Shown here: piece by piece, positions 6,123 through 34,983 of the stretch
How the letters are laid out: each line of letters begins with the position of its first letter
Numbering within the stretch: the first letter of the stretch is position 1
Assembly: GCA_963842815.1 (NCBI GenBank)
Contig: CAWJHU010000001.1
Span: 94,497 to 158,496, forward strand
Reading direction: 5' to 3'
Origin: Candidatus Nomurabacteria bacterium
GTDB lineage: Bacteria; Patescibacteriota; Minisyncoccia; Phycocordibacterales; UBA9973
Length of the DNA: 64,000 nucleotides
Program-made: the position numbers and the translations under genes
The notes under the pieces: model-generated
Seen by the model: the letters and a program-made list of their open reading frames with translations, nothing else
What the model was told of the DNA's origin: nothing
Databases searched by the model: none

Positions 6123-6968
6123 TCAAAGCTTGAGATATTGCGACAAACTGTCCAGCATTCTTTGATAACTGCTGGGGATGGCAACTTCTCCAATAAAATC
6201 ATTGGAGGGGGTGCATTCCTCCATTGTCTCCATCTTACATTTATCAAGAAGAGTGATGGCCTGGCAACTAAAATGAGTCGCCAGTGCGGTGTTACCATTC
6301 TGACGATAGTGTTCCGAAATTGCATAAGCATATTCCGCAGCGTTTCTAGGATCCGTCTCTTTGCATGCTTCAAAAATTTCCTCAAGATCCGTATATCTCT
6401 CCCAAGAAAAAATTTCCGAAGGATCAAACCAATTGCTAATCTCATGTTTTGCATCAAATGTGTTTTTTGATGCGTGGATGAGATTCATCACCGAACGTTC
6501 CTCTTTGTTCGCCGATATCGGAGAATCAATCGAAAAATCTCCCCTGATTGTGCCAGGCTCCGCCAAATAAGGCAACGTATGCCCAACAATTTTGCGCGCC
6601 GTATCAACGGCATGGACACCCTGAAACACCATCGGCATTATGAGACCGGAAGATAAATAACAGAAATTCCACTTCTTTATCTTTTGTCCGATAACAAATG
6701 GATCTTCGCTGCCAAAAGTATCAACAACATTGGCTTTGTACTTTTGACAAGTTTTCAGAGTATTATCTCCTAACCCGCGAATCCAGTCATCCGTACTGGG
6801 GAAATGCCCTTCAAGTTGTTTTTTTGTTGCAAAAATTAATTTGCAAGCAACCATTTTAAGCCCTGGTTGTTCCAGTCTTTTAATTATTTTACCGACCAAT
6901 CCACGTTTTATTGCATCGGTCTTAATAATTACTAGTGTTTGTTCGCCAATTCCTTGTCGATTTTTCAT
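6123..6968 (-). CDS. ndk: Nucleoside-diphosphate kinase with an internal insert and a C-terminal extension of about 110 aa
   Basis: N-terminal EQTLVIIKTDAIKRGLVGKIIKRLEQPGLKMVACKL, then PGTIRGDFSID...NLIHASKNTFDAKHEISNWF with the catalytic His. At 281 aa it is about twice the normal NDK length. Confidence 0.75.
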   Translation of the reverse strand: MKNRQGIGEQTLVIIKTDAIKRGLVGKIIKRLEQPGLKMVACKLIFATKKQLEGHFPSTDDWIRGLGDNTLKTCQKYKANVVDTFGSEDPFVIGQKIKKWNFCYLSSGLIMPMVFQGVHAVDTARKIVGHTLPYLAEPGTIRGDFSIDSPISANKEERSVMNLIHASKNTFDAKHEISNWFDPSEIFSWERYTDLEEIFEACKETDPRNAAEYAYAISEHYRQNGNTALATHFSCQAITLLDKCKMETMEECTPSNDFIGEVAIPSSYQRMLDSLSQYLKL

Positions 6969-8027: not shown

Positions 8028-9422
8028 GTGGTTGTCCCCACTTTTAATGTTTTAAAAAAAATTATGAATACTAAATTTGTAACAAAAACAAAACTTGTTT
8101 GGACAATGACCAAGCGGAAAGTTAAAGATATTCTCCCAGCTTCGTATAATCCGAAAACCATGACAGAGAATGAACGTCGAGATCTTGAAGATTCAATCAA
8201 GGAATTTGGAACTGCTGTGCCTGTGGTTTTAAATATTGGAAGTCGAAACAATTTTCTGATAAATGGCCACCAGCGTCTAATTATTTATGCTGATCTTGGC
8301 ATCGACGAAATTGACGTCATGGTTCCCAGTCGAGAATTAAGCGAAAAAGAAGAGATGACGTTAAATTTAAGATTGTCAAAAAATTTAGGTTCATGGGATG
8401 AAACAAAACTTAAAGACCTAGATATGAACCTACTTCTTGAGGTGGGTTTCGGAGACGATGAATTACAGAATCTATTCGATAACGTAGATGTGATTGATGA
8501 TGAGTTTGATGTTGGAAAAGCCATCCGAGAAACAAAGATAGCTAGAGTAAAACCAGGAGAAATTTGGGAACTGGGAGATCATAAATTACTTGTGGGAGAT
8601 TCAACTTCGCCGGAGCAAGTGCAAAAATTGATGGCCAACGAATTAGCTGATGTCATTTATTGTGATGGACCCTACAATATAGGGTTAAGCTATTCTGACG
8701 GAATTGGCACTAAAGGAAAATACGGAGGAGAATATGGCAGCCATACAAGAAGAGATGAGGCGAAAGATTTTCCAGATTTGAAATTCAAAAATATGAAAAT
8801 GTCGGACAGTAAAACGGTGCAGAAATATACCGAATTCATGGACAGCTCCATAAAAAATGCCATCAGTGTAGCTAAACCAAATTGTCATATATTTTATTGG
8901 TGCGATGAAAAATATATTTGGCTAATTCAAACATTATATGCTCAAAATAAAATTGAGAATAAGCGAGTTTGTTTGTGGATAAAAAATAATCAAAATTGTA
9001 CTCCGCAGGTAGCATTCAACAAAGCATATGAACCATGCGTTTACGGAGTTATTGGAAAACCGCATCTCAATAAAAATATCAAAAATGCTAATGAAATGTT
9101 AAATCAAGAAATTGGCAGCGGCAACCAGGTGCATGAAGAAATCATAGACATGCTAAATATTTGGCTAGAAAAAAGAGATAACGCTCAAGACTATGAGCAT
9201 CCAACCCAAAAACCGGTGACCCTAAATGAAAAGCCATTGAAAAGATGCAGTGCTCCAGGGCATATTGTGTTTTCTGGATTTGCCGGTGGTGGCAGTGATT
9301 TAATCGCCTGCGAACAACTTGGTAGAAAATGGCGAGGGGTTGAGATTGATTTGATTTTCGCTACGGTTTGTATCGACCGTTGGGAAAAATTTACCAACAA
9401 AACAGCGAAACTAATATCATGA
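8028..9422 (+). CDS. ParB-like nuclease domain fused to a DNA methyltransferase (N6-adenine/N4-cytosine, PF01555-type)
   Basis: N-terminal NPKTMTENERRDLEDSIKEFGTAVPVVLNIG...FLINGHQRL is a ParB/Srx fold; then DVIYCDGPYNIG (DPPY-like motif IV) and HPTQKPVTL. The true start may be an internal Met (around 8064 or 8106). Confidence 0.8.
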   Translation: MVVPTFNVLKKIMNTKFVTKTKLVWTMTKRKVKDILPASYNPKTMTENERRDLEDSIKEFGTAVPVVLNIGSRNNFLINGHQRLIIYADLGIDEIDVMVPSRELSEKEEMTLNLRLSKNLGSWDETKLKDLDMNLLLEVGFGDDELQNLFDNVDVIDDEFDVGKAIRETKIARVKPGEIWELGDHKLLVGDSTSPEQVQKLMANELADVIYCDGPYNIGLSYSDGIGTKGKYGGEYGSHTRRDEAKDFPDLKFKNMKMSDSKTVQKYTEFMDSSIKNAISVAKPNCHIFYWCDEKYIWLIQTLYAQNKIENKRVCLWIKNNQNCTPQVAFNKAYEPCVYGVIGKPHLNKNIKNANEMLNQEIGSGNQVHEEIIDMLNIWLEKRDNAQDYEHPTQKPVTLNEKPLKRCSAPGHIVFSGFAGGGSDLIACEQLGRKWRGVEIDLIFATVCIDRWEKFTNKTAKLIS

Positions 9423-12189: not shown

Positions 12190-13143
12190 CTATTTGTTGT
12201 ATTCATAGCTTTGTTTAATAAGCCCCATAACTTTATCTATGTCCTCTTTTCTTTCAAGTTTTACCTCGTAGTCGCCATTACCCCAATGGCCGATTACTTT
12301 AGGTTTTGTTAGATTACGGGCCATGCCAGCTGGATTATCTAGTTCTCCACTTGGCACATTTAAGAAAATTTTCAGCAAATCGTGCAGAATAACTATGTCG
12401 CAAAAATTAGTGGTTAATTTATAGGCAATATATTTTGATTTAGGTTCTTCGATGATTGATTCATCTAAAGCTGATATCCTCTCTTTAAGGACTGCAAATA
12501 TTTCCTTAACATTAATGTTGGCAGATTTAAGGTGATCATCAATGGTATATTGTATTTTTTCCTTGAATACACTTTTTTGTTTTTCTCCTTTTCCAAAAAT
12601 TTCAGAGGTGGAAATTTTCACTTTGCGTTGGTTCTCTGATTCCACCAGCAGGATATTATTCTCATAGAGCCGGTAATGAAGAAGCTCAATATTCATAGGC
12701 AGTAAATCAGCTGTATCTAAATCGAATTTGTTATAACTTTCCGCAACACAGATTACTCGAGGTGACGCCCAATCAATCTCTATATTAATATTCGCTTTAT
12801 GTACTAATGCCTCAAAAGCATCTTTGTGATCCAACAGCCAACGTAAATATGATAGTCCTTGATTGATGACGTTCTCGTTCTGAGATAATTTATATTCAAT
12901 GATAACCGGTGAGCCGTTGTTATCAATTCCCACCGTATCCATTCTCCCACCGAAGCTAGTTGAATATTCAGTTGCTAAAAATGTAATGTTCAATATCTCG
13001 TCAAGATTTTTCTCGAAGATTTTTTGAATATCCTTTTCAAGACCAACTTTAACGATTGGGATCTTTTTTGCTTTTTCGTTTTGGGTAAAAAATAACGCCA
13101 TGTGTTTATTCCTGGCGTGAGGTTTAAACACTAAACCCCGCAC
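12190..13143 (-). CDS. NucS/DUF91-like PD-(D/E)xK nuclease-domain protein (paralog of 13916..15007)
   Basis: GRMDTVGIDNNGSPVIIEYK...NVINQGLSYLRW shows a D...ExK motif followed by a QxxxY motif, as in NucS/RecB-family nucleases. Confidence 0.5.
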   Translation of the reverse strand: MRGLVFKPHARNKHMALFFTQNEKAKKIPIVKVGLEKDIQKIFEKNLDEILNITFLATEYSTSFGGRMDTVGIDNNGSPVIIEYKLSQNENVINQGLSYLRWLLDHKDAFEALVHKANINIEIDWASPRVICVAESYNKFDLDTADLLPMNIELLHYRLYENNILLVESENQRKVKISTSEIFGKGEKQKSVFKEKIQYTIDDHLKSANINVKEIFAVLKERISALDESIIEEPKSKYIAYKLTTNFCDIVILHDLLKIFLNVPSGELDNPAGMARNLTKPKVIGHWGNGDYEVKLERKEDIDKVMGLIKQSYEYNK

Positions 13144-13273
13144 CAGCTAGGTCTTGCGACCCCATACCAGTTTCCCGATACGGCCCTTGGAAGAGTTGCT
13201 GAACGCGGGGTTCAGTATCTTCCAAGGGTCTTTGGATCATGCCGTAAACTACTTCACGGTTTAGATCACTCAT
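13121..13273 (-). CDS. Possible small ORF (50 aa) upstream of 12190..13143
   Basis: Minus-strand ATG at 13271-13273 gives MSDLNREVVYGMIQRPLEDTEPRVQQLFQGPYRETGMGSQDLAGAGFSV; it overlaps a GC-rich nested hairpin (13184-13228). It may be non-coding. Confidence 0.2.
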
Positions 13274-30604: not shown

Positions 30605-30679
30605 GCCCTCATAGTTTAATGGATAGAATGCGAGCTTGCGGAGTTTGCGATGTAGGTTCGATTCCTACTGAGGGCACCA
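30605..30679 (+). tRNA. tRNA-Arg-like paralog (my fold gives anticodon GCG; the weak anticodon stem may mean degeneracy), CCA encoded
   Basis: GCCCTCATAGTTTAATGGATAGAATGCGAGCTTGCGGAGTTTGCGATGTAGGTTCGATTCCTACTGAGGGCACCA. The D-arm and the whole variable/T-arm (CGATGTAGGTTCGATTCCTAC) are identical to tRNA-Arg(TCT) at 24530-24601; perfect acceptor and T stems. Confidence 0.6.
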
Positions 30680-30884
30680 TTAGGGAACTCATCGGTTTTT
30701 TGGAAGCCAAAATGCGGGACGCGCGAAGCGCGTCCCAAGGATTCCCGCCGAATTCCCCCAACGAATTCAGAATTTTTGGCGCGCTGGCGCGCACTGTTTT
30801 TTCGCCAAGAAGCAGGTTCGAGCCAAAGATTTCTTTGGCTACAGACCTTTTTAGCAAAAAGGTCGGAATCAGAATGCAATTTTG
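30675..30884 (+). repeat. Repeat X1: GC-rich, hairpin-dense repeat starting at the tRNA CCA (inverted partner at 32394-32558)
   Basis: About 95% identical to the reverse complement of 32394-32558 apart from a 43-nt insertion; contains perfect hairpins GGGACGCGC-GAAG-GCGCGTCCC and GGCGCGC-TG-GCGCGC. Confidence 0.8.
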
Positions 30885-32215
30885 TCCAATGCTTGTGCGT
30901 CTTTTACCCAGTTTTGGAAAGGTTCGAGCCAATCATTTTGCTTGTGTGAAAGAGAAGTCATTTCTTCTTCGAGCGACTTCTTTTGCAAAAGTAGTTTTCC
31001 TTTTTCAGAACGATAAATTTCTTTTTCAATATCTTGGTCAAGATATCCAGTAAGAAGTCGCTCTAATTTTTTTGAAATGAAGATATTTTTTCTTCTTTCT
31101 CTTTCACACAAGCAGTCAAAGACTGGGCGGAATTTTTGTGGTCTTTTTCTGCCATTTTCAATAATTCCTCCGCCCAGTCTTTGGGCAAAGAAACTTTTTG
31201 AATGAGTGATGATAACTGATTATCTAATTTTTCTTGGCGAATACAAGGTTCGGGACACTTCAAACTTTTAGTTTTTCTTCGTGCAGTGATAATAAACATA
31301 TTCGTGAACATTTCCATTTTTCTGTTTCTTCACCTTGTATTCGCCAGTTATCATCATTCCGCATGAAGCACAGGAAATAAGTCCGCAAAAAGGTTGAGGT
31401 TCATTTTTTGGTTTTCGTTCAGGTTGTACCACGTTGTTTCAACATTTCCTGTGCTTCATCAAAAAGTTTCTTTGAAATGATTGGCTCGTGCTTTCCTTCG
31501 TGGAGTTCACCACCATATTTAAATAATCCGATGTAAAAAGGATTTGAAAGAATAAAAGACGCTCTGGTTTTGTGAGATTCTCTTTCCGGTTCTTGAATAT
31601 AATGCCGGTTTTCGCCAAAAAGTTTGAAATATCTTCCAGCCGTATGATTTCCTTTCACGTATTTTCAAAAGCCAAGCGGATAATTTTAGATTTCTTTTTA
31701 TCAACCACAATATGTTTTTGTTCTGCGAATCGTTTAAATATCCCACTGGCGCTTGGCTTGGAAATATTCCCATTTCTAACTTTTTGGCGAAGTCCGCGTT
31801 TCGTATTTTCGGAAAGAGAATCTACATAGTATTTGCTTTGTCCGAAAGCCATATTCAACATAAATTTTCCTTGTGATGTGTTATCACACCAAAATGTTGG
31901 AAATTTTAGGCTCGCAAGTTTCCCTGTGTCGAGGAGATAAATAACTTTGACCTCCGTCCACCGAATTGCGGGCAAGACGATCGGGATTCCATGCGAGAAT
32001 GTTTCCGCCGAATTTTTCAATCTCATCTCATCATTTTATTAAAAATCGGACGACCTGGAATTTTCGCAGATTGTTTTTCAATACTATTCGGCGGAAATTT
32101 CAATATTTTCTCGCTTGGCATACTCCCGCAATTCGGTGAGTTGCGCGTCAATACTTAAAACTTGTTTATCCTCGACATCAGTGGACTTGCGAGCATACAA
32201 AAAGAATTTTTGCAT
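30869..32215 (-). pseudogene. Large serine recombinase pseudogene (at least five fragments separated by frameshifts and stops)
   Basis: Fragments: 32215->32095 MQKFFLYARKSTDVEDKQVLSIDAQLTELREYAKRENIEISAE* (catalytic-Ser region); 32026->31655 ...YVDSLSENTKRGLRQKVRNG; 31658->31419 ...GLFKYGGELHEGKHEPIISKKLFDEAQEM; then 31317->31063 and 31111->30869 (zinc ribbon and coiled coil). All align to the intact recombinase at 21637..22956. Confidence 0.75.
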
Positions 32216-32393
32216 ATATTTTTTTATAAAGCAGAAATGGCTACTCTAGTGTTGAAACCTTAACGAAAAGTTAAGATAGCTAGAATAGCCATTTCTGCTA
32301 ACTTTTCTAATAATCGGTTTCAACATTTCTAGTATACCAAAAAATATTTTATATCAAAAATTCTTTTTGTATTTTCTGACAAAGCAAATTCGT

Positions 32394-32558
32394 CAAAATT
32401 GCATTCTGATTTCGAACCTGCTTCTTGGCGAAAAAATAGTGCGCACCAGCGCGCCAAAAATTCTGAATTCGTTGGGGAAATTCGGCGGGAATCCTTGGGA
32501 CGCGCTTCGCGCGTCCCGCATTTTGGCTTCCAAAAAACCGATGAGTTCCCTTATGGTG
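32394..32558 (-). repeat. Repeat X2 (inverted copy of X1), joined at its outer end to repeat Y1
   Basis: Reverse complement matches X1; its outer end ...GAGTTCCCTTATGGTG abuts Y1. Confidence 0.8.
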
Positions 32559-32873
32559 TCTCTATTGTACCAAGTTAGAACCTATTTTCAAAACAAAGTA
32601 TCCTAGCGTTCCCCCGCGTGCTAAAGCACCTCTGTGCAGAAGCACAGAGCTTTCTCAAAGAGAAAGTGCGGGGAAAACGCTGAACGGCTCAAATACTGGG
32701 AAATGAGCCGTTCAAGAAAAAATGGACTCGGTTTTGCGAAACAATTTTGCGGGAGGAAGGATTCGCAAAACCGAGACTAAAGTTTTTTGAAATTCGGCGG
32801 GATTCGGGTTTCCGCCCCGCAGGAGGGTGCGGGAGGAATGCGGGGCGGGCATTTTGGATTTTTGGGCGGGCAA
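32554..32873 (+). repeat. Repeat Y1: about 320 bp, GC-rich and structured (inverted partner at 34644-34961)
   Basis: About 95% identical to the reverse complement of 34644-34961; hairpins CTCTGTGC-AGAA-GCACAGAG, GAACGGCTC...GAGCCGTTC and CTCGGTTTTGCGAA...TTCGCAAAACCGAG. Confidence 0.8.
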
Positions 32874-32909
32874 GTAGAAAAAGAAATACAAAAATGGTAA
32901 AATCTTTCT

Positions 32910-33299
32910 ATGAAAGATTTTGATCAATGGAATGAGCTAAAAAAGAAAATTGAAGCCGAGAAAAATAATCCTGAAAAATTTCCCAAAGAGGGAGAAGTTT
33001 GGATGAGTAATGTTGGCAAAAATATTGGCTTTGAACAAAATGGAAGCGGAGATAATTTTTCTCGTCCTGTTTTAATTGTGAAGAAATTTAACAATCATAT
33101 GTTTTGGGCTATATCACTTTCTACCAAACAAAAAGATTTTGATTTTTATTTCAATTTTACTGATTCAAATAATCAAAAAGTTTCCGCTATTTTGGCACAA
33201 ATGAAATTGATTAGTGTTAAAAGATTGAAAAGAAAACTTTATGATATTCCAAATGAACTTTTTGATGAAATGAAACAAAAATTAAAATCTTTTCTCTAG
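32910..33299 (+). CDS. PemK/MazF-family toxin-like protein with no adjacent antitoxin
   Basis: GEVWMSNVGKNIGFEQNGSGDNFSRPVLIVKKFNN...ISLSTK resembles Kid/PemK GEIWLVSLDPTAGHEQQGTRPVLIV...VVPVTS; followed by the hairpin terminator GAAACCCCGC-TTTTG-GCGGGGTTTC. Confidence 0.55.
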   Translation: MKDFDQWNELKKKIEAEKNNPEKFPKEGEVWMSNVGKNIGFEQNGSGDNFSRPVLIVKKFNNHMFWAISLSTKQKDFDFYFNFTDSNNQKVSAILAQMKLISVKRLKRKLYDIPNELFDEMKQKLKSFL

Positions 33300-33302
33300 A
33301 AA

Positions 33303-33330
33303 CTCGAAACCCCGCTTTTGGCGGGGTTTC
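33303..33330 (+). terminator. Rho-independent terminator after the MazF-like gene
   Basis: GAAACCCCGC TTTTG GCGGGGTTTC. Confidence 0.55.
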
Positions 33331-33644
33331 TCGGAGCCTTTCGGCACTTTGTATACTAAGTATAGCAAGCCAATAGACAAAGTCAAGCGAAATTTTTGAA
33401 TTACTAAAAGCTTGGCTTTTTGGCTTGTTTTTTATATAATAAAAGCACAATTTAATATGAAGACCTAACCCTTTGTTTTTTCATTGGCATGGTCAAAGAA
33501 ACTCGCTACAAGATAAAAAACTCCTCGTCAGAGTACTTGTAGCGAGTCATAGCTGGAAACGGCTGTGGGTAGTCTTTGGACTATCGGCTGGCGGGGATTT
33601 TTGTCAAAGTTTTCTTCTAGTTAAAATAAAAATCTCGCTACAAT

Positions 33645-34625
33645 ATGAAAAATAAATTTTTAAATTATTGTCTCATTTTTTCCTTAATATTGGTTGGTTA
33701 TTTTTTCTTTATTTCTAAAACATCAGCCGAAGAATCATGCACAGTACAGAATGCAAGTTTTTCACCCAGTGGAACTTTGCCAGATTTCTTAAATTCGGGT
33801 GGTAATATCAGTATTAATGTTGAAACTAATAACTGTGCTGGAAAAACAATTTTACTCACAGTTTTTGGAACACATGAACATTGGATCGGGCAAACTTCAC
33901 TTGCGGGGCAACTAACATCACCACTTGATGTTTCCGGTTTGCATAATAAACCTATTACTGTTCCAAACTCTGAAAACTTTAAAATTGATTTAATTGCAAA
34001 TGAGGAATCTTGTATAGGCCGTAATTCTTTTGTTAGTACATTGGGTGGACAAGCAATATATGCCACTTATGACTGTGCCTATTATTTTGAATTTGGTGGA
34101 GCAACAAATTTTAGTTCAATATCTTTTCCAAGTGGTGGAATAATTTATAACTGTAACGGTGAATGTGAAGATCAACAAAAACCTTGGAGTTTTATTTCAA
34201 TGACTGAACTTACAGCAGGTGGTGGAGGTGGTGGAGGACAAGGAGGTGGTGGTTCAGGTGGAGGTGGAGGAAGTGGTGGTGGAAATTATACTCCACCAGA
34301 ACCTGTTGATCTTTCAACAAGCGGAGGAGGTTTAAGTGCGGCTTGTCCAAAAACTGGATGTGGATTTAATGAATTAATGGAAATGGTTAATAAAGTTATT
34401 CACTTCATACTTTTTGATTTAGCTATGCCAATCGCGGCTATAATATTTGCATATGTAGGATTTTTACTTATTACAAGCGGAGGTAATCCAGAAACAAAAA
34501 ACAAAGCCAAGAAAATTTTTTGGAATGTATTTATTGGATTTGTTATTGCTTTAGCCGCTTGGTTGATTGTTAAAACAATTCTTTCAACTTTAGGATATAC
34601 TGGCACATCTTTTTTGGCTGATTAA
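33645..34625 (+). CDS. Secreted protein with a Gly-rich linker and a C-terminal TrbC/VirB2-like pilin domain
   Basis: Signal/TM at the N-terminus; GGGGGGGQGGGGSGGGGGSGGG linker; C-terminal LAMPIAAIIFAYVGFLLITSGGNPETKNKAKKIFWNVFIGFVIALAAWLIVKTIL is the two-helix VirB2/TrbC-type pilin pattern. Confidence 0.5.
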   Translation: MKNKFLNYCLIFSLILVGYFFFISKTSAEESCTVQNASFSPSGTLPDFLNSGGNISINVETNNCAGKTILLTVFGTHEHWIGQTSLAGQLTSPLDVSGLHNKPITVPNSENFKIDLIANEESCIGRNSFVSTLGGQAIYATYDCAYYFEFGGATNFSSISFPSGGIIYNCNGECEDQQKPWSFISMTELTAGGGGGGGQGGGGSGGGGGSGGGNYTPPEPVDLSTSGGGLSAACPKTGCGFNELMEMVNKVIHFILFDLAMPIAAIIFAYVGFLLITSGGNPETKNKAKKIFWNVFIGFVIALAAWLIVKTILSTLGYTGTSFLAD

Positions 34626-34643
34626 AATAATTTTAATCTTTTG

Positions 34644-34961
34644 TTGCCCGCCCAAAAATCCAAAATTCTCGCCCCGCATTCCTCCCGCACCCTCCTGCGG
34701 GGCGGAAACCCAAATCCCGCAGAATTTCAAAAATCTTTAGTCTCGGTTTTGCGAATCCTCCCTCCCGTAATATTGTTTCGCAAAACCGAGTCCATTTTTT
34801 CTTGAACGGCTCATTTCCCACCATTTGAGTCGTTCGGCGTTTCCCCGCACTTTCTCTTTGAGAAAGCTCTGTGCTACTGCACAGAGGTGCTTTAGCACGC
34901 GGGGGAACGCTAGGATACTTTGTTTTGAAAATAGGTTCTAACTTGGTACAATAGAGACACA
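34644..34961 (-). repeat. Repeat Y2 (inverted copy of Y1); its outer end resembles a degenerate tRNA 3' half
   Basis: Reverse complement matches Y1. The outer terminus GGTTCTAACTTGGTACAATAGAGACAC resembles the tRNA-Arg 3' half GGTTCGATTCCTACTGAGGGCACCA. Confidence 0.8.
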
Positions 34962-34983
34962 ATTTGAAAATTAATTTCTATTT

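What the first reader, a model, noticed from the sequence alone, without database searches (positions are those of the whole stretch)
30675..30884. The X and Y repeats are GC-rich, hairpin-dense islands in AT-rich DNA and may be structured RNA or protein-binding arms
X contains the perfect hairpins GGGACGCGC-GAAG-GCGCGTCCC and GGCGCGC-TG-GCGCGC, and (in X1 only) GCCAAAGA-TTTC-TTTGGC and GACCTTTTTAGC-AAAAAGGTC. Y contains a junction-like cluster of stems, CCCCGCG[TGC-TAAA-GCA][CTCTGTGC-AGAA-GCACAGAG][CTTTCTC-AAA-GAGAAAG]TGCGGGG, plus GAACGGCTC...GAGCCGTTC and CTCGGTTTTGCGAA...TTCGCAAAACCGAG. X and Y also share the motif TCCCGCCGAATT in opposite orientations. Such dense secondary structure is atypical for simple att arms; it could be a recombinase-accessory RNA, a DNA cruciform or a recombination directionality site. 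The ORFs called across these regions (30609..30932, 32367..32606, 34633..34962 and others) are mirror artefacts of the inverted repeats.
Basis: partly seen in the sequence, partly recalled or inferred. Interest (0 to 1): 0.6.

Follow-up and report, generated by a model that had tools for sequence, protein, structure and literature searches.

The report
Duplicated attachment-site arms of tRNA-targeting element
The two GC-rich repeat pairs are the two arms of the attachment site of a small mobile element that a large serine recombinase inserts at the 3' end of almost any tRNA gene in CPR bacteria; the element unusually keeps a second, inverted, intact copy of that site, and the hairpins in the arms are conserved and look like transcription terminators, not a known RNA.

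Summary
X (30675-30890 / 32388-32558) and Y (32553-32873 / 34644-34963) are 48-54% GC inverted repeats in 33-38% GC DNA and fold far better than shuffles.

They are not a known RNA. The layout is tRNA-Arg | X1 | dead large serine recombinase gene | X2-core-Y1 | cargo | Y2 | flank. X is the 3' coding end of the recombinase gene. Y is non-coding.

In 80 related loci from CPR genomes the same double inverted repeat recurs. The gene's 3' end abuts the 3' end of a tRNA gene in 54 of 67 testable loci, covering 25 tRNA species. The junctions read as attL and attR plus an intact inverted attP inside the element.

The Y arm copies the tRNA T-loop motif GTTCGA, placed 4 nt further from the crossover. 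That is the attP/attB offset known for these enzymes.

X hairpin 1 and the Y four-way junction keep pairing through compensatory changes, with no strand bias. Most X arms carry terminator-like hairpins.

Identity as att arms is well supported. Terminator function is inferred. Why attP is duplicated is unresolved. I found no published description.

The parts
30605..30679 (+). tRNA-Arg(GCG) gene, the integration target (B arm of attL); its last 5 nt (CACCA) overlap X1
   Evidence: ARAGORN; Rfam tRNA 62 bits
30675..30680 (.). attL crossover region CACCAT (shared core CAC)
   Evidence: junction comparison: attL gagggCACCATtaggg, inner agagaCACCATaaggg, attR agagaCACAATttgaa
30675..30890 (-). X1: the P' arm of the att site, which is also the 3'-terminal coding region of the recombinase gene
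   Evidence: repeat; coding tail conserved and kept open
30716..30736 (.). X hairpin 1, GGGACGCG-cgaag-CGCGTCCC; terminator-like on the minus strand (tail CATTTTGG); encodes WDALRAS
   Evidence: 94% paired, 5 of 9 pairs with compensatory changes in 28 loci
30778..30792 (.). X hairpin 2, GCGCG-ctgg-CGCGC followed by ACTGTTTTTT; terminator-like on the plus (tRNA-sense) strand
   Evidence: variant stems at the same place in other loci, read by eye because the alignment register slips
30822..30864 (-). Two palindromes present in X1 only, GCCAAAGATTTCTTTGGC and GACCTTTTTAGCAAAAAGGTC. They encode the most conserved C-terminal motif DLFAKKV..AKEIFG. X2 lacks this 45-nt stretch.
30609..32215 (-). Large serine recombinase pseudogene (Resolvase + Recombinase + Zn_ribbon_recom), broken into at least eight ORF pieces in three frames
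32216..32387 (-). Unique AT-rich leader (26% GC) between X2 and the recombinase start; contains a 20-nt palindrome pair at 32230-32249 / 32280-32299
   Evidence: (pair I13)
32388..32558 (+). X2: inverted copy of X1, upstream of the recombinase gene
   Evidence: its mirrored ORF has no conserved start
32553..32558 (.). Core of the intact inner attP-like site (ATGGTG, the complement of CACCAT), where X2 and Y1 join
32553..32873 (-). Y1: the P arm, non-coding, read towards the core on the minus strand
32564..32591 (-). Promoter-like TTGAAA-16-TGgTACAAT inside the P arm, firing across the core through X2 towards the recombinase gene; contains the tRNA T-loop mimic GGTTCTAAC
32606..32680 (.). Y1 four-way junction (closing stem plus three hairpin arms)
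32910..33299 (+). Cargo: PemK/MazF-like toxin gene
33462..33585 (+). Cargo: LOOT RNA (RF03000), upstream of the pilin-like gene
33645..34625 (+). Cargo: 326-aa secreted protein with Gly-rich linker and C-terminal T4SS_pilin domain
34644..34963 (+). Y2: the P arm at the right end of the element (attR side)
34837..34910 (.). Y2 four-way junction
34925..34952 (+). Promoter-like TTGAAA-16-TACAAT in Y2, firing out of the element into the flank
34958..34963 (.). attR crossover region CACAAT

Best explanation
X and Y are the two arms (P' and P) of the attachment site of a ~4.3-kb integrative element (30675-34963). A large serine recombinase inserted it at the 3' end of tRNA-Arg(GCG).

Shown. The element reads tRNA | core | X1 | recombinase gene | X2 | core | Y1 | cargo | Y2 | core | flank. 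Its outer junctions are therefore attL (tRNA + X) and attR (Y + flank). It also holds an intact, inverted copy of the joined site (X2-core-Y1) between the recombinase gene and the cargo. That is why X and Y each appear as an inverted pair. X is also the last ~70 codons of the recombinase gene, whose frame runs across the crossover. Y is non-coding.

Inferred. The enzyme recognises the universal T-loop DNA (GTTCGAnTCC) plus the acceptor end of any tRNA gene. The Y arm mimics this with GTTCGA placed 4 nt further out, which is the attP versus attB geometry of this enzyme class. The crossover lies in the last acceptor base, the discriminator and C74.

The GC-rich hairpins are conserved secondary-structure elements. 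They most likely act as intrinsic terminators or insulators in three ways. They end the tRNA transcript that has lost its own downstream region. They stop recombinase and tRNA transcription from colliding. In the inner copy they attenuate transcription from the promoter-like P arm into the recombinase gene.

The inner attP copy probably serves as the recombinase's promoter and operator, and as an alternative attP. In this window the recombinase gene is dead, so the element is a relic.
For: - Recombinase family: the stitched pseudogene has Resolvase + Recombinase + Zn_ribbon_recom domains and more than 7,900 homologues, the best 75-85% identical and 515-550 aa long.
- X is coding: the homologues' C-termini equal translated X1. 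The reading frame is kept open through X in 48 of 50 loci, against 33-39% for other frames.
- Conserved architecture: in 80 loci from CPR genomes an X-type inverted repeat was found in 62. A Y-type repeat abuts it wherever the flank is long enough.
- tRNA targeting: a tRNA 3' end abuts the recombinase 3' end in 54 of 67 testable loci, covering 25 tRNA species. Near-identical X arms sit at different tRNAs.
- Junction cores: attL, inner site and attR share CAC, CTC, TAC or AGC, matching the host tRNA's discriminator.
- Empty site: tRNA-Val(tac) and tRNA-Arg(tct) are adjacent in the window but separated by a 5-kb homologous element in L017.
- T-loop mimic: GTTCGA lies 19 nt from the core in the B arm and 23 nt in the P arm. 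Profile similarity peaks at a shift of +4. This matches the 4-5 bp DBD2 shift between attB and attP half-sites (PMC11722253).
- Hairpins: X hairpin 1 is 94% paired with 5 of 9 compensatory pairs. The Y junction is 98.9% paired with 11 of 28 compensatory pairs.
- Terminator-like hairpins occur in 38 of 51 X arms in the tRNA sense and 21 of 51 in the recombinase sense, against 1-2% of shuffles. In the window.
Against: - No circular form, no precise empty site for this very locus and no recombination activity was observed.
- The recombinase here is a pseudogene.
- Terminator function is inferred from shape only. In the window, hairpin 1 lacks a T tract on the tRNA-sense strand and hairpin 2 has only a 5-bp stem.
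- The Y four-way junction is not a canonical terminator. In Y1 it lies between the two promoter-like sites that the scan found diverging on either side of it.
- The promoter reading of the P arm is strong only in the window's subfamily: 24 of 48 arms against 24% of shuffles under loose criteria.
- Serine integrases need only about 50 bp of attP. This explanation does not account for 150-400-nt arms kept 92-100% identical within each element.
- The lack of strand bias in wobble pairs fits a DNA-level role as well as it fits terminators.
Confidence: 0.7

Rival explanations
1. X and/or Y are genes for, or parts of, a structured non-coding RNA that assists the recombinase.
For: Strong folding z-scores. 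Compensatory changes in X hairpin 1 and in all three arms of the Y junction. In 7 of 8 copies the Y junction folds somewhat better on the strand read towards the core.
Against: - No Rfam match, even at E <= 5.
- Wobble pairs are as frequent on one strand as on the other: 3 vs 2 and 5 vs 4.
- X is protein-coding.
- Y is modular, and whole hairpins come and go between subfamilies.
- Y1 lies between the two promoter-like sites that the scan found diverging on either side of it.
- Large serine recombinases are not known to use RNA (my own knowledge).
Confidence: 0.08
2. The inverted repeats are crossover sites of a DNA inversion switch, Hin/Gin-like or 2-micron-like. The recombinase flips the recombinase segment and/or the cargo segment, and that is why an inverted copy of the site is kept.
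For: - The recombinase gene lies between inverted sites, as hin does.
- Because X includes the gene's 3' end, the gene stays intact in either orientation (inference from the layout).
- Five loci, plus L012 by eye, have the tRNA on the 5' side of the recombinase gene.
- In L021 the gene reads across the core into Y.
- The copies are 92-100% identical within elements.
Against: - Orientation is strongly biased, 54 to 5.
- The HTH-XRE cargo gene sits next to Y1 in all 7 loci that have it, so the cargo does not flip freely.
- The enzyme is a large serine integrase, not a small invertase, and such enzymes normally pair only attP with attB (PMC11722253).
- The flipped state can equally arise by integration through the other attP copy or by homologous recombination.
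Confidence: 0.15
3. The hairpins act at the DNA level, either as cruciforms or as folded single strands. For example, they could mark or present the att site, or prime complementary-strand synthesis when the element is single-stranded.
For: Compensatory changes without strand bias. In a single-stranded circle the two inverted copies of the whole site would pair into a double-stranded attP (inference from the layout).
Against: - No relaxase, Rep or phage genes appear among the cargo ORFs listed for 22 loci; only the window's proteins were scanned against Pfam.
- Double-strand cleavage of a folded stem by a serine recombinase would leave hairpin-capped chromosome ends (my reasoning).
- Serine integrases have no known need for extruded DNA.
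Confidence: 0.1
4. Two unrelated elements with terminal inverted repeats (transposons or MITEs) happen to lie side by side, one with X ends and one with Y ends.
For: Each unit, taken alone, is flanked by inverted repeats.
Against: - The X2-Y1 abutment with a shared core recurs in at least 16 loci with both repeat pairs.
- There are no target-site duplications.
- The left end always lies at a tRNA 3' end.
- No transposase is present.
- X is the recombinase's own coding end.
Confidence: 0.02
5. The inverted repeats are assembly artefacts of metagenome-assembled genomes.
For: One related contig, L203, ends in a perfect 509-nt fold-back that looks artefactual. Many contigs break at these repeats.
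Against: The window's copies differ by 3-5% and by indels. The same architecture occurs in about 60 independent assemblies, with arm identities of 78-100% (most 89-100%).
Confidence: 0.01

Closest known systems
Large serine integrases of phages and integrative elements (phiC31, Bxb1, A118/LI, SPbeta)
   Same: Same domain set (Resolvase, Recombinase, zinc ribbon). The insertion is bounded by attL and attR with a short shared core. The outer binding motif lies 4 nt further from the centre in the element's arm than in the target arm, as in attP versus attB.
   Different: - The target is the 3' end of many different tRNA genes (25 species seen), not one site.
- The P arm mimics the tRNA T-loop.
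- The gene's reading frame runs through the P' arm and across the crossover.
- A second intact attP is kept in inverted orientation.
- The arms are 150-400 nt long and full of conserved hairpins.
- No directionality factor was identified.
Yeast 2-micron plasmid (FLP/FRT), and inc18 plasmids such as pSM19035 with beta recombinase
   Same: If excised, the element would be a small circle. Two long inverted repeats would divide it into two unique segments, each repeat holding a recombinase site, with the recombinase gene in one segment.
   Different: No free circle was seen and no replication genes were found. The enzyme is a large serine integrase. The element is found integrated at tRNA genes. 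Orientation is strongly biased rather than mixed.
Hin/Gin/Cin DNA invertase switches
   Same: A serine recombinase gene sits between inverted copies of its own site, as hin does in the H segment. Both orientations occur among loci.
   Different: The repeats are 150 nt or more, against 26-bp sites. The enzyme is a large integrase with no C-terminal HTH. No enhancer was identified. No gene is obviously switched. The sites are also integration junctions.
tRNA-targeting genomic islands and tycheposons (mostly tyrosine integrases)
   Same: A small cargo-carrying island at the 3' end of tRNA genes, with the tRNA 3' end rebuilt by the element.
   Different: Those elements usually duplicate 15-50 nt of one specific tRNA as direct repeats. 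Here only 3-6 nt are shared and the tRNA varies. The repeats are inverted and internal.
Intrinsic (Rho-independent) terminators
   Same: GC-rich stem, short loop and T-rich tail. Stems vary by compensatory changes. They sit at the ends of transcription units.
   Different: Here they lie inside the coding tail of a gene. They occur in both orientations through the inverted repeat. The Y four-way junction does not have terminator shape.

Membership tests
Large serine recombinase integrative element | Recombinase with Resolvase catalytic domain, Recombinase domain and zinc ribbon domain | tested here: met
   Pfam hits PF00239, PF07508 and PF13408 on the stitched pseudogene and on all top homologues
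Large serine recombinase integrative element | Insertion bounded by hybrid sites (attL, attR) that share a short core with the element's attP and the target attB | tested here: met
   Junction triplets in 15 loci and the window. The pair tRNA-Val(tac)/tRNA-Arg(tct) is adjacent in the window and split by the element in L017. No exact empty site was found for this locus.
Large serine recombinase integrative element | The outer (DBD2, zinc ribbon) motif lies 4-5 bp closer to the centre in attB than in attP half-sites | tested here: met
   GTTCGA is 19 nt from the core in tRNA arms and 23 nt in Y arms. Profile similarity peaks at shift +4. The rule is quoted from PMC11722253.
Large serine recombinase integrative element | Catalysis of attP x attB recombination; excision that depends on a directionality factor | not testable with these tools
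   No experiment was possible. The gene in this window is frameshifted. No directionality factor was recognised in the cargo.
Structured non-coding RNA (any Rfam family) | Match to a curated covariance model | tested here: not met
   No hit in X or Y at gathering score or at E <= 5
Structured non-coding RNA (novel) | Base pairs kept by compensatory changes, with strand-specific G-U pairs and a defined transcript | tested here: inconclusive
   Compensatory changes are present. Wobble pairs are not strand-biased (3 vs 2; 5 vs 4). Transcription could not be tested.
Intrinsic terminator | GC-rich stem-loop followed by a T-rich tract on the transcribed strand | tested here: met
   Window: minus-strand 30737-30715 and plus-strand 30779-30792, with mirror copies in X2. 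38 of 51 X arms in the tRNA sense and 21 of 51 in the recombinase sense, against 1-2% of shuffles. Termination itself was not tested.
Hin/Gin-type inversion switch | Small serine invertase with C-terminal HTH acting on short inverted sites, with both orientations in one population | tested here: not met
   The enzyme is a 515-550-aa large serine recombinase. Orientation across loci is 54 to 5. Mixtures within one population were not testable.
2-micron-like inverted-repeat plasmid | Autonomous circle with replication functions and two inverted repeats carrying recombinase sites | tested here: inconclusive
   The geometry of the inferred circle fits. No circular contig was found. No replication gene was evident among the cargo ORFs listed for 22 loci, but those were not scanned against a family library.
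Transposon or MITE with terminal inverted repeats | The element's two ends are inverted repeats of each other, with a target-site duplication | tested here: not met
   The element's ends are X1 and Y2, which are unrelated. There is no duplication beyond the 3-6-nt core.

The most novel reading that the evidence does not exclude
A very widespread family of CPR mobile elements uses a large serine integrase that recognises the generic T-loop and acceptor end of tRNA genes, so it can insert behind essentially any tRNA. It needs a second, inverted, intact attP for its life cycle. That copy might flip the recombinase and cargo modules, allow integration through either copy, or make integration reversible without a directionality factor because the P arm mimics the B arm. 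This would be a new operating mode for serine integrases, not just a new member.
Probability: 0.3. Interest if true: 0.85.

Novelty: new variant of a known kind. Interest (0 to 1): 0.62.

Why it matters
Serine integrases are prized genome-engineering tools because each inserts DNA at one defined site. A family that reads a universal feature of tRNA genes, and whose own site copies that feature with the textbook 4-bp offset, would be a natural test of how these enzymes tell attP from attB. It would also be a candidate for host-independent landing sites.

The family appears very common in CPR bacteria. The search found more than 7,900 homologues before hitting its cap. The elements carry varied cargo; in the loci examined the ORFs include candidate methyltransferases, toxins, pilin-like proteins and other enzymes. 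They may therefore be a main route of gene flow in a group with few known mobile elements.

Their inverted repeats also break many metagenome assemblies at tRNA genes.

The conserved inner inverted attP, and hairpins maintained inside a coding region, are unexplained features. Both can now be tested directly.

Tried and rejected
- Rfam at gathering score and at E <= 5: nothing in X or Y.
- Other copies of X or Y in the window: none.
- Look-ups of exact flanking proteins, to find an empty site or other contexts: only short Logan contigs of the same sample, broken at repeats, or no record.
- Metagenome scan with a 16-mer from the Y junction: 120 hits, mostly chance. About ten distinct new junction sequences were recovered, and eight were used.
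- Search for a free circle in 4-5-kb contigs: none. L203 is a close relative with an intact gene and the same cargo, but its end is a perfect 509-nt fold-back, probably an assembly artefact.
- Shared motif TCCCGCCGAATT as an accessory binding site: TCGGCGGG-like words are 4.5 times denser in the arms than outside. The arms are GC-rich and the motif's orientation differs between subfamilies, so this is inconclusive.
- The mirrored ORF in X2 as a small protein: no conserved start codon.
- Promoter in the P arm across the whole family: strong only in the window's subfamily.
- Covariation count for X hairpin 2: the MAFFT register slips between subfamilies, so only an inspection by eye is reported.
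- Literature: seven full-text searches and four papers read. No description of this element was found.
- Rejected outright: assembly artefact, and two side-by-side transposons (see rivals).

Full report
**Observation**

X is an inverted pair: 30675-30821 with 32412-32558 (97%), plus 30867-30890 with 32388-32411. X1 carries 45 nt that X2 lacks. Y is an inverted pair, 32553-32873 with 34644-34963 (95%).

The arms are 48-54% GC, against 37.7% for the window and 33-37% for the genes between them. They fold much better than dinucleotide shuffles, with z of -3.8 and -4.0 for X and -7.2 and -8.7 for Y. Both strands fold because the stems are palindromes. Neither repeat occurs elsewhere in the window. 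No Rfam family matches them.

**Anatomy**

- X1 starts inside the last five bases (CACCA) of a tRNA-Arg(GCG) gene at 30605-30679.
- Between X1 and X2, on the minus strand, lies a gene broken into at least eight ORF pieces in three frames. Stitched together it is a large serine recombinase with Resolvase, Recombinase and zinc-ribbon domains.
- X2 abuts Y1 with a 6-nt overlap, ATGGTG.
- Between Y1 and Y2 lie a PemK-like toxin gene, a LOOT RNA and a gene for a secreted protein with a T4SS-pilin domain.
- X2+Y1 is therefore one ~490-nt unit. Y2 and X1, if joined, would be its reverse complement.
- The three junctions read gagggCACCATtaggg (tRNA-X1), agagaCACCATaaggg (Y-X, inner copy) and agagaCACAATttgaa (Y2-flank). 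That is attL, an intact attP in inverted orientation, and attR, with CAC as the shared core.

**X is coding**

The stitched recombinase has more than 7,900 homologues at E < 1e-20. The best 120 are 75-85% identical and mostly 510-600 aa long, about 70 aa longer than the stitched core. Their extra C-terminus is X1 translated on the minus strand. An example is ...AKEIFGSNLLLGEKLVRASAPKILNSFGKFGGNPWDALRASRISASKKPSSSILV.

In related loci the reading frame stays open through X, across the crossover and into the antisense of the tRNA in nearly all cases. Over the last 150 nt before the core it is open in 48 of 50 loci, against 33% and 39% for the other frames.

The ORF across X2 has no conserved start codon in 46 loci. 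The 109-aa ORF across Y2 has no full-length counterpart in Y1. Those two are artefacts.

**The architecture is a family trait**

A scan of one genome per species returned 80 loci, nearly all from CPR (Patescibacteria) genomes.

- Self-comparison found the X-type inverted repeat in 62 of them. It consists of the last 115-170 nt of the gene, copied in inverted orientation 70-350 nt upstream of the start.
- Wherever the flank was long enough, a Y-type repeat of 150-400 nt abuts the upstream X copy. Its partner lies 1.2-5.2 kb away, beyond the cargo.
- Copies within one element are mostly 89-100% identical (down to 78%), while X differs widely between elements: mean column identity is 49%.
- Many public contigs end exactly at these repeats.
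- The cargo ORFs differ completely from locus to locus. By reading the translations (not scanned against a family library), they include what look like methyltransferases, dehydrogenases, an alanine racemase-like protein and membrane proteins. A small HTH-XRE-like gene lies next to Y1, in all 7 loci that have it.

**Target**

In 54 of 67 testable loci the gene's 3' end abuts, usually overlapping by 3-5 nt, the 3' end of a tRNA gene on the other strand. Twenty-five tRNA species are represented. Almost identical X arms sit next to different tRNAs. Examples are the L043, L046, L048, L053 and L056 group at Gly, Leu and Leu, and the window and L003 at two different Arg tRNAs. The breadth therefore belongs to single lineages.

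The shared core is the last acceptor base, the discriminator and C74. The inner copy carries the same core as the host tRNA.

An empty-site comparison is available. tRNA-Val(tac) and tRNA-Arg(tct) are directly adjacent in the window (24678-24529, minus strand). In L017 a 5-kb element, 73% identical to the window's, lies exactly between them.

**Recognition**

Arms were aligned on the core. tRNA arms have GTTCGAnTCC (the T-loop) starting 19 nt from the core. Y arms have a conserved T.AAAA...GTTCGA.....GT..TA.A with GTTCGA starting 23 nt from the core. Profile similarity between the two peaks at a shift of +4: 0.315 against 0.21-0.27.

For large serine integrases, the outer DNA-binding domain sits 4-5 bp closer to the centre on attB than on attP half-sites, and this is what distinguishes the two sites (PMC11722253). 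I infer that the enzyme reads the T-loop DNA of any tRNA gene and that Y is its attP-type mimic. This step is inferred, not shown.

**Hairpins**

- *X hairpin 1 (30716-30736).* It aligns without gaps in 28 loci. 94% of cells pair, against 34-56% when the partner is slid. Five of nine pairs show double compensatory changes, for example GGGACGCG, GGGCGGCG, GGGCGTGC, GGGCAGCC. RNAalifold recovers only this helix.
- *X hairpin 2.* It is present with different stems, such as GGCGCGG/CCGCGCC, GGCGGCC/GGCCGCC and CCCCGCC/GGCGGGG. The alignment register slips, so I did not count it.
- *Y four-way junction.* It occurs in 16 distinct sequences. 98.9% of cells pair, and 11 of 28 pairs, in all three arms, show double changes. 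Slid controls give 27-62%.
- *Strand bias.* Wobble pairs are as common on one strand as on the other (3 vs 2; 5 vs 4). The data do not point to an RNA of one strand.
- *Terminator shape.* Terminator-like hairpins with T tracts occur in 38 of 51 X arms read from the tRNA side and in 21 of 51 read in the recombinase sense, against 1-2% of shuffles. In the window, hairpin 1 is terminator-like in the recombinase sense and hairpin 2 in the tRNA sense, with mirror copies in X2.
- *Promoter-like P arm.* In the window's subfamily the P arm is also a near-consensus extended -10 promoter, TTGAAA-16-TGnTACAAT, firing across the core. In the inner copy it points through X2 into the recombinase gene. In Y2 it points out of the element. 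Across the whole family this promoter reading is weak.

**Interpretation**

Well supported: X and Y are the P' and P arms of the att site of a tRNA-targeting serine-integrase element, present twice because the element keeps an intact inverted attP.

Likely but inferred: the hairpins are terminators or insulators. They would separate tRNA, recombinase and cargo transcription, and attenuate transcription from the P arm into the recombinase gene.

Unresolved: why the arms are so long, why the two copies stay nearly identical, and what the inner attP is for.

Both orientations of the recombinase segment occur. Five loci, plus one by eye, have the tRNA on the gene's 5' side. In one locus the gene reads into Y. 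This fits integration through either copy, or occasional inversion. The 54 to 5 bias, and the fixed position of the HTH gene, argue against free flipping.

A single-stranded fold-back role is conceivable. However, it does not work simply with double-strand cleavage, and no cargo ORF suggested a single-stranded stage, though the cargo outside the window was not scanned against a family library.

**Novelty**

Seven full-text searches found no description of this element, of an inner inverted attP, or of a serine integrase that targets tRNA genes generically. The library is incomplete, so this is absence of evidence only.

I class it as a new variant of a known kind. For the finding as written, the verdict is that the structures are real and conserved, but they are parts of a recombination site and a coding tail, not an RNA gene. 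The copy in this window is a decaying relic.

Noticed in passing
window 33462-33585 (+) and 13149-13267 (-): Two LOOT RNAs (RF03000, 78 and 84 bits). One lies in the element's cargo, 60 nt upstream of the T4SS-pilin-like gene. The other lies directly upstream of an unrelated 317-aa ORF (12190-13143, minus strand). Both look like 5' leaders.
   Followed up: partly
L017 2540-2580 (minus strand, just after tRNA-Arg(tct)): A 25-nt scar, CACC-TTAAACGAACTAA-CCTATTTTCAAA: the first 13 nt of X joined to the -35 part of the Y arm. It suggests that an earlier element at this second tRNA was lost by internal deletion rather than by precise excision.
   Followed up: partly
L045 2958-3017 versus 6552-6611: The two Y copies of one element differ in the whole of junction arm 2 (CTCTGTGC/GCACAGAG against CACCACGC/GCGTGGTG). 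Both versions pair and both occur in other elements, which suggests exchange of Y modules between elements.
   Followed up: no
window 30670-30680; L017 11049-11060: The CCA end of tRNA-Arg(GCG) in the window is supplied by the element (core CAC, then CA from X). The unoccupied tRNA-Arg(gcg) of L017 ends ...GCAC-TAG without an encoded CCA, and the window's attR implies an ancestral ...CAC-AAT.
   Followed up: partly
L203 (JGI 3300000571, 4512 nt): A close relative of the window's element: 81% nt identity, the same PemK and pilin-like cargo, and an uninterrupted 544-aa recombinase ORF. The contig's last 509 nt are a perfect inverted copy of an internal stretch, probably an assembler fold-back at the repeat.
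   Followed up: partly
loci L003-L082 (table): Many public MAG contigs start or end within the X or Y repeats. This element family appears to be a frequent cause of assembly breaks at tRNA genes in CPR genomes. Several carrier contigs are binned as Gammaproteobacteria, Planctomycetes or Bacteroidetes, probably misbinned.
   Followed up: no
window 30822-30866 versus 32411/32412: The 45 nt missing from X2 are bounded in X1 by GGTTCGA and GGTCGGA, which fits a slippage deletion. The left boundary is the highly conserved GGTTCGAGCC (coding FGSNL). It is the same 9-mer as the T-loop mimic in the Y arm, and the X repeat ends there in most loci.
   Followed up: partly
window 32230-32249 / 32280-32299: A 20-nt inverted pair, 95% complementary, in the AT-rich leader just upstream of the recombinase start. 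It could be an operator. It was not compared across loci.
   Followed up: no
L042 3578-3690 / 8070-8183; also L011, L025, L034: Variant layouts. In L042 the partner of the upstream X copy lies 2.8 kb beyond the recombinase gene, next to tRNA-Ile. L011, L025 and L034 have no tRNA at the gene's 3' end. These could be rearranged or split elements.
   Followed up: no
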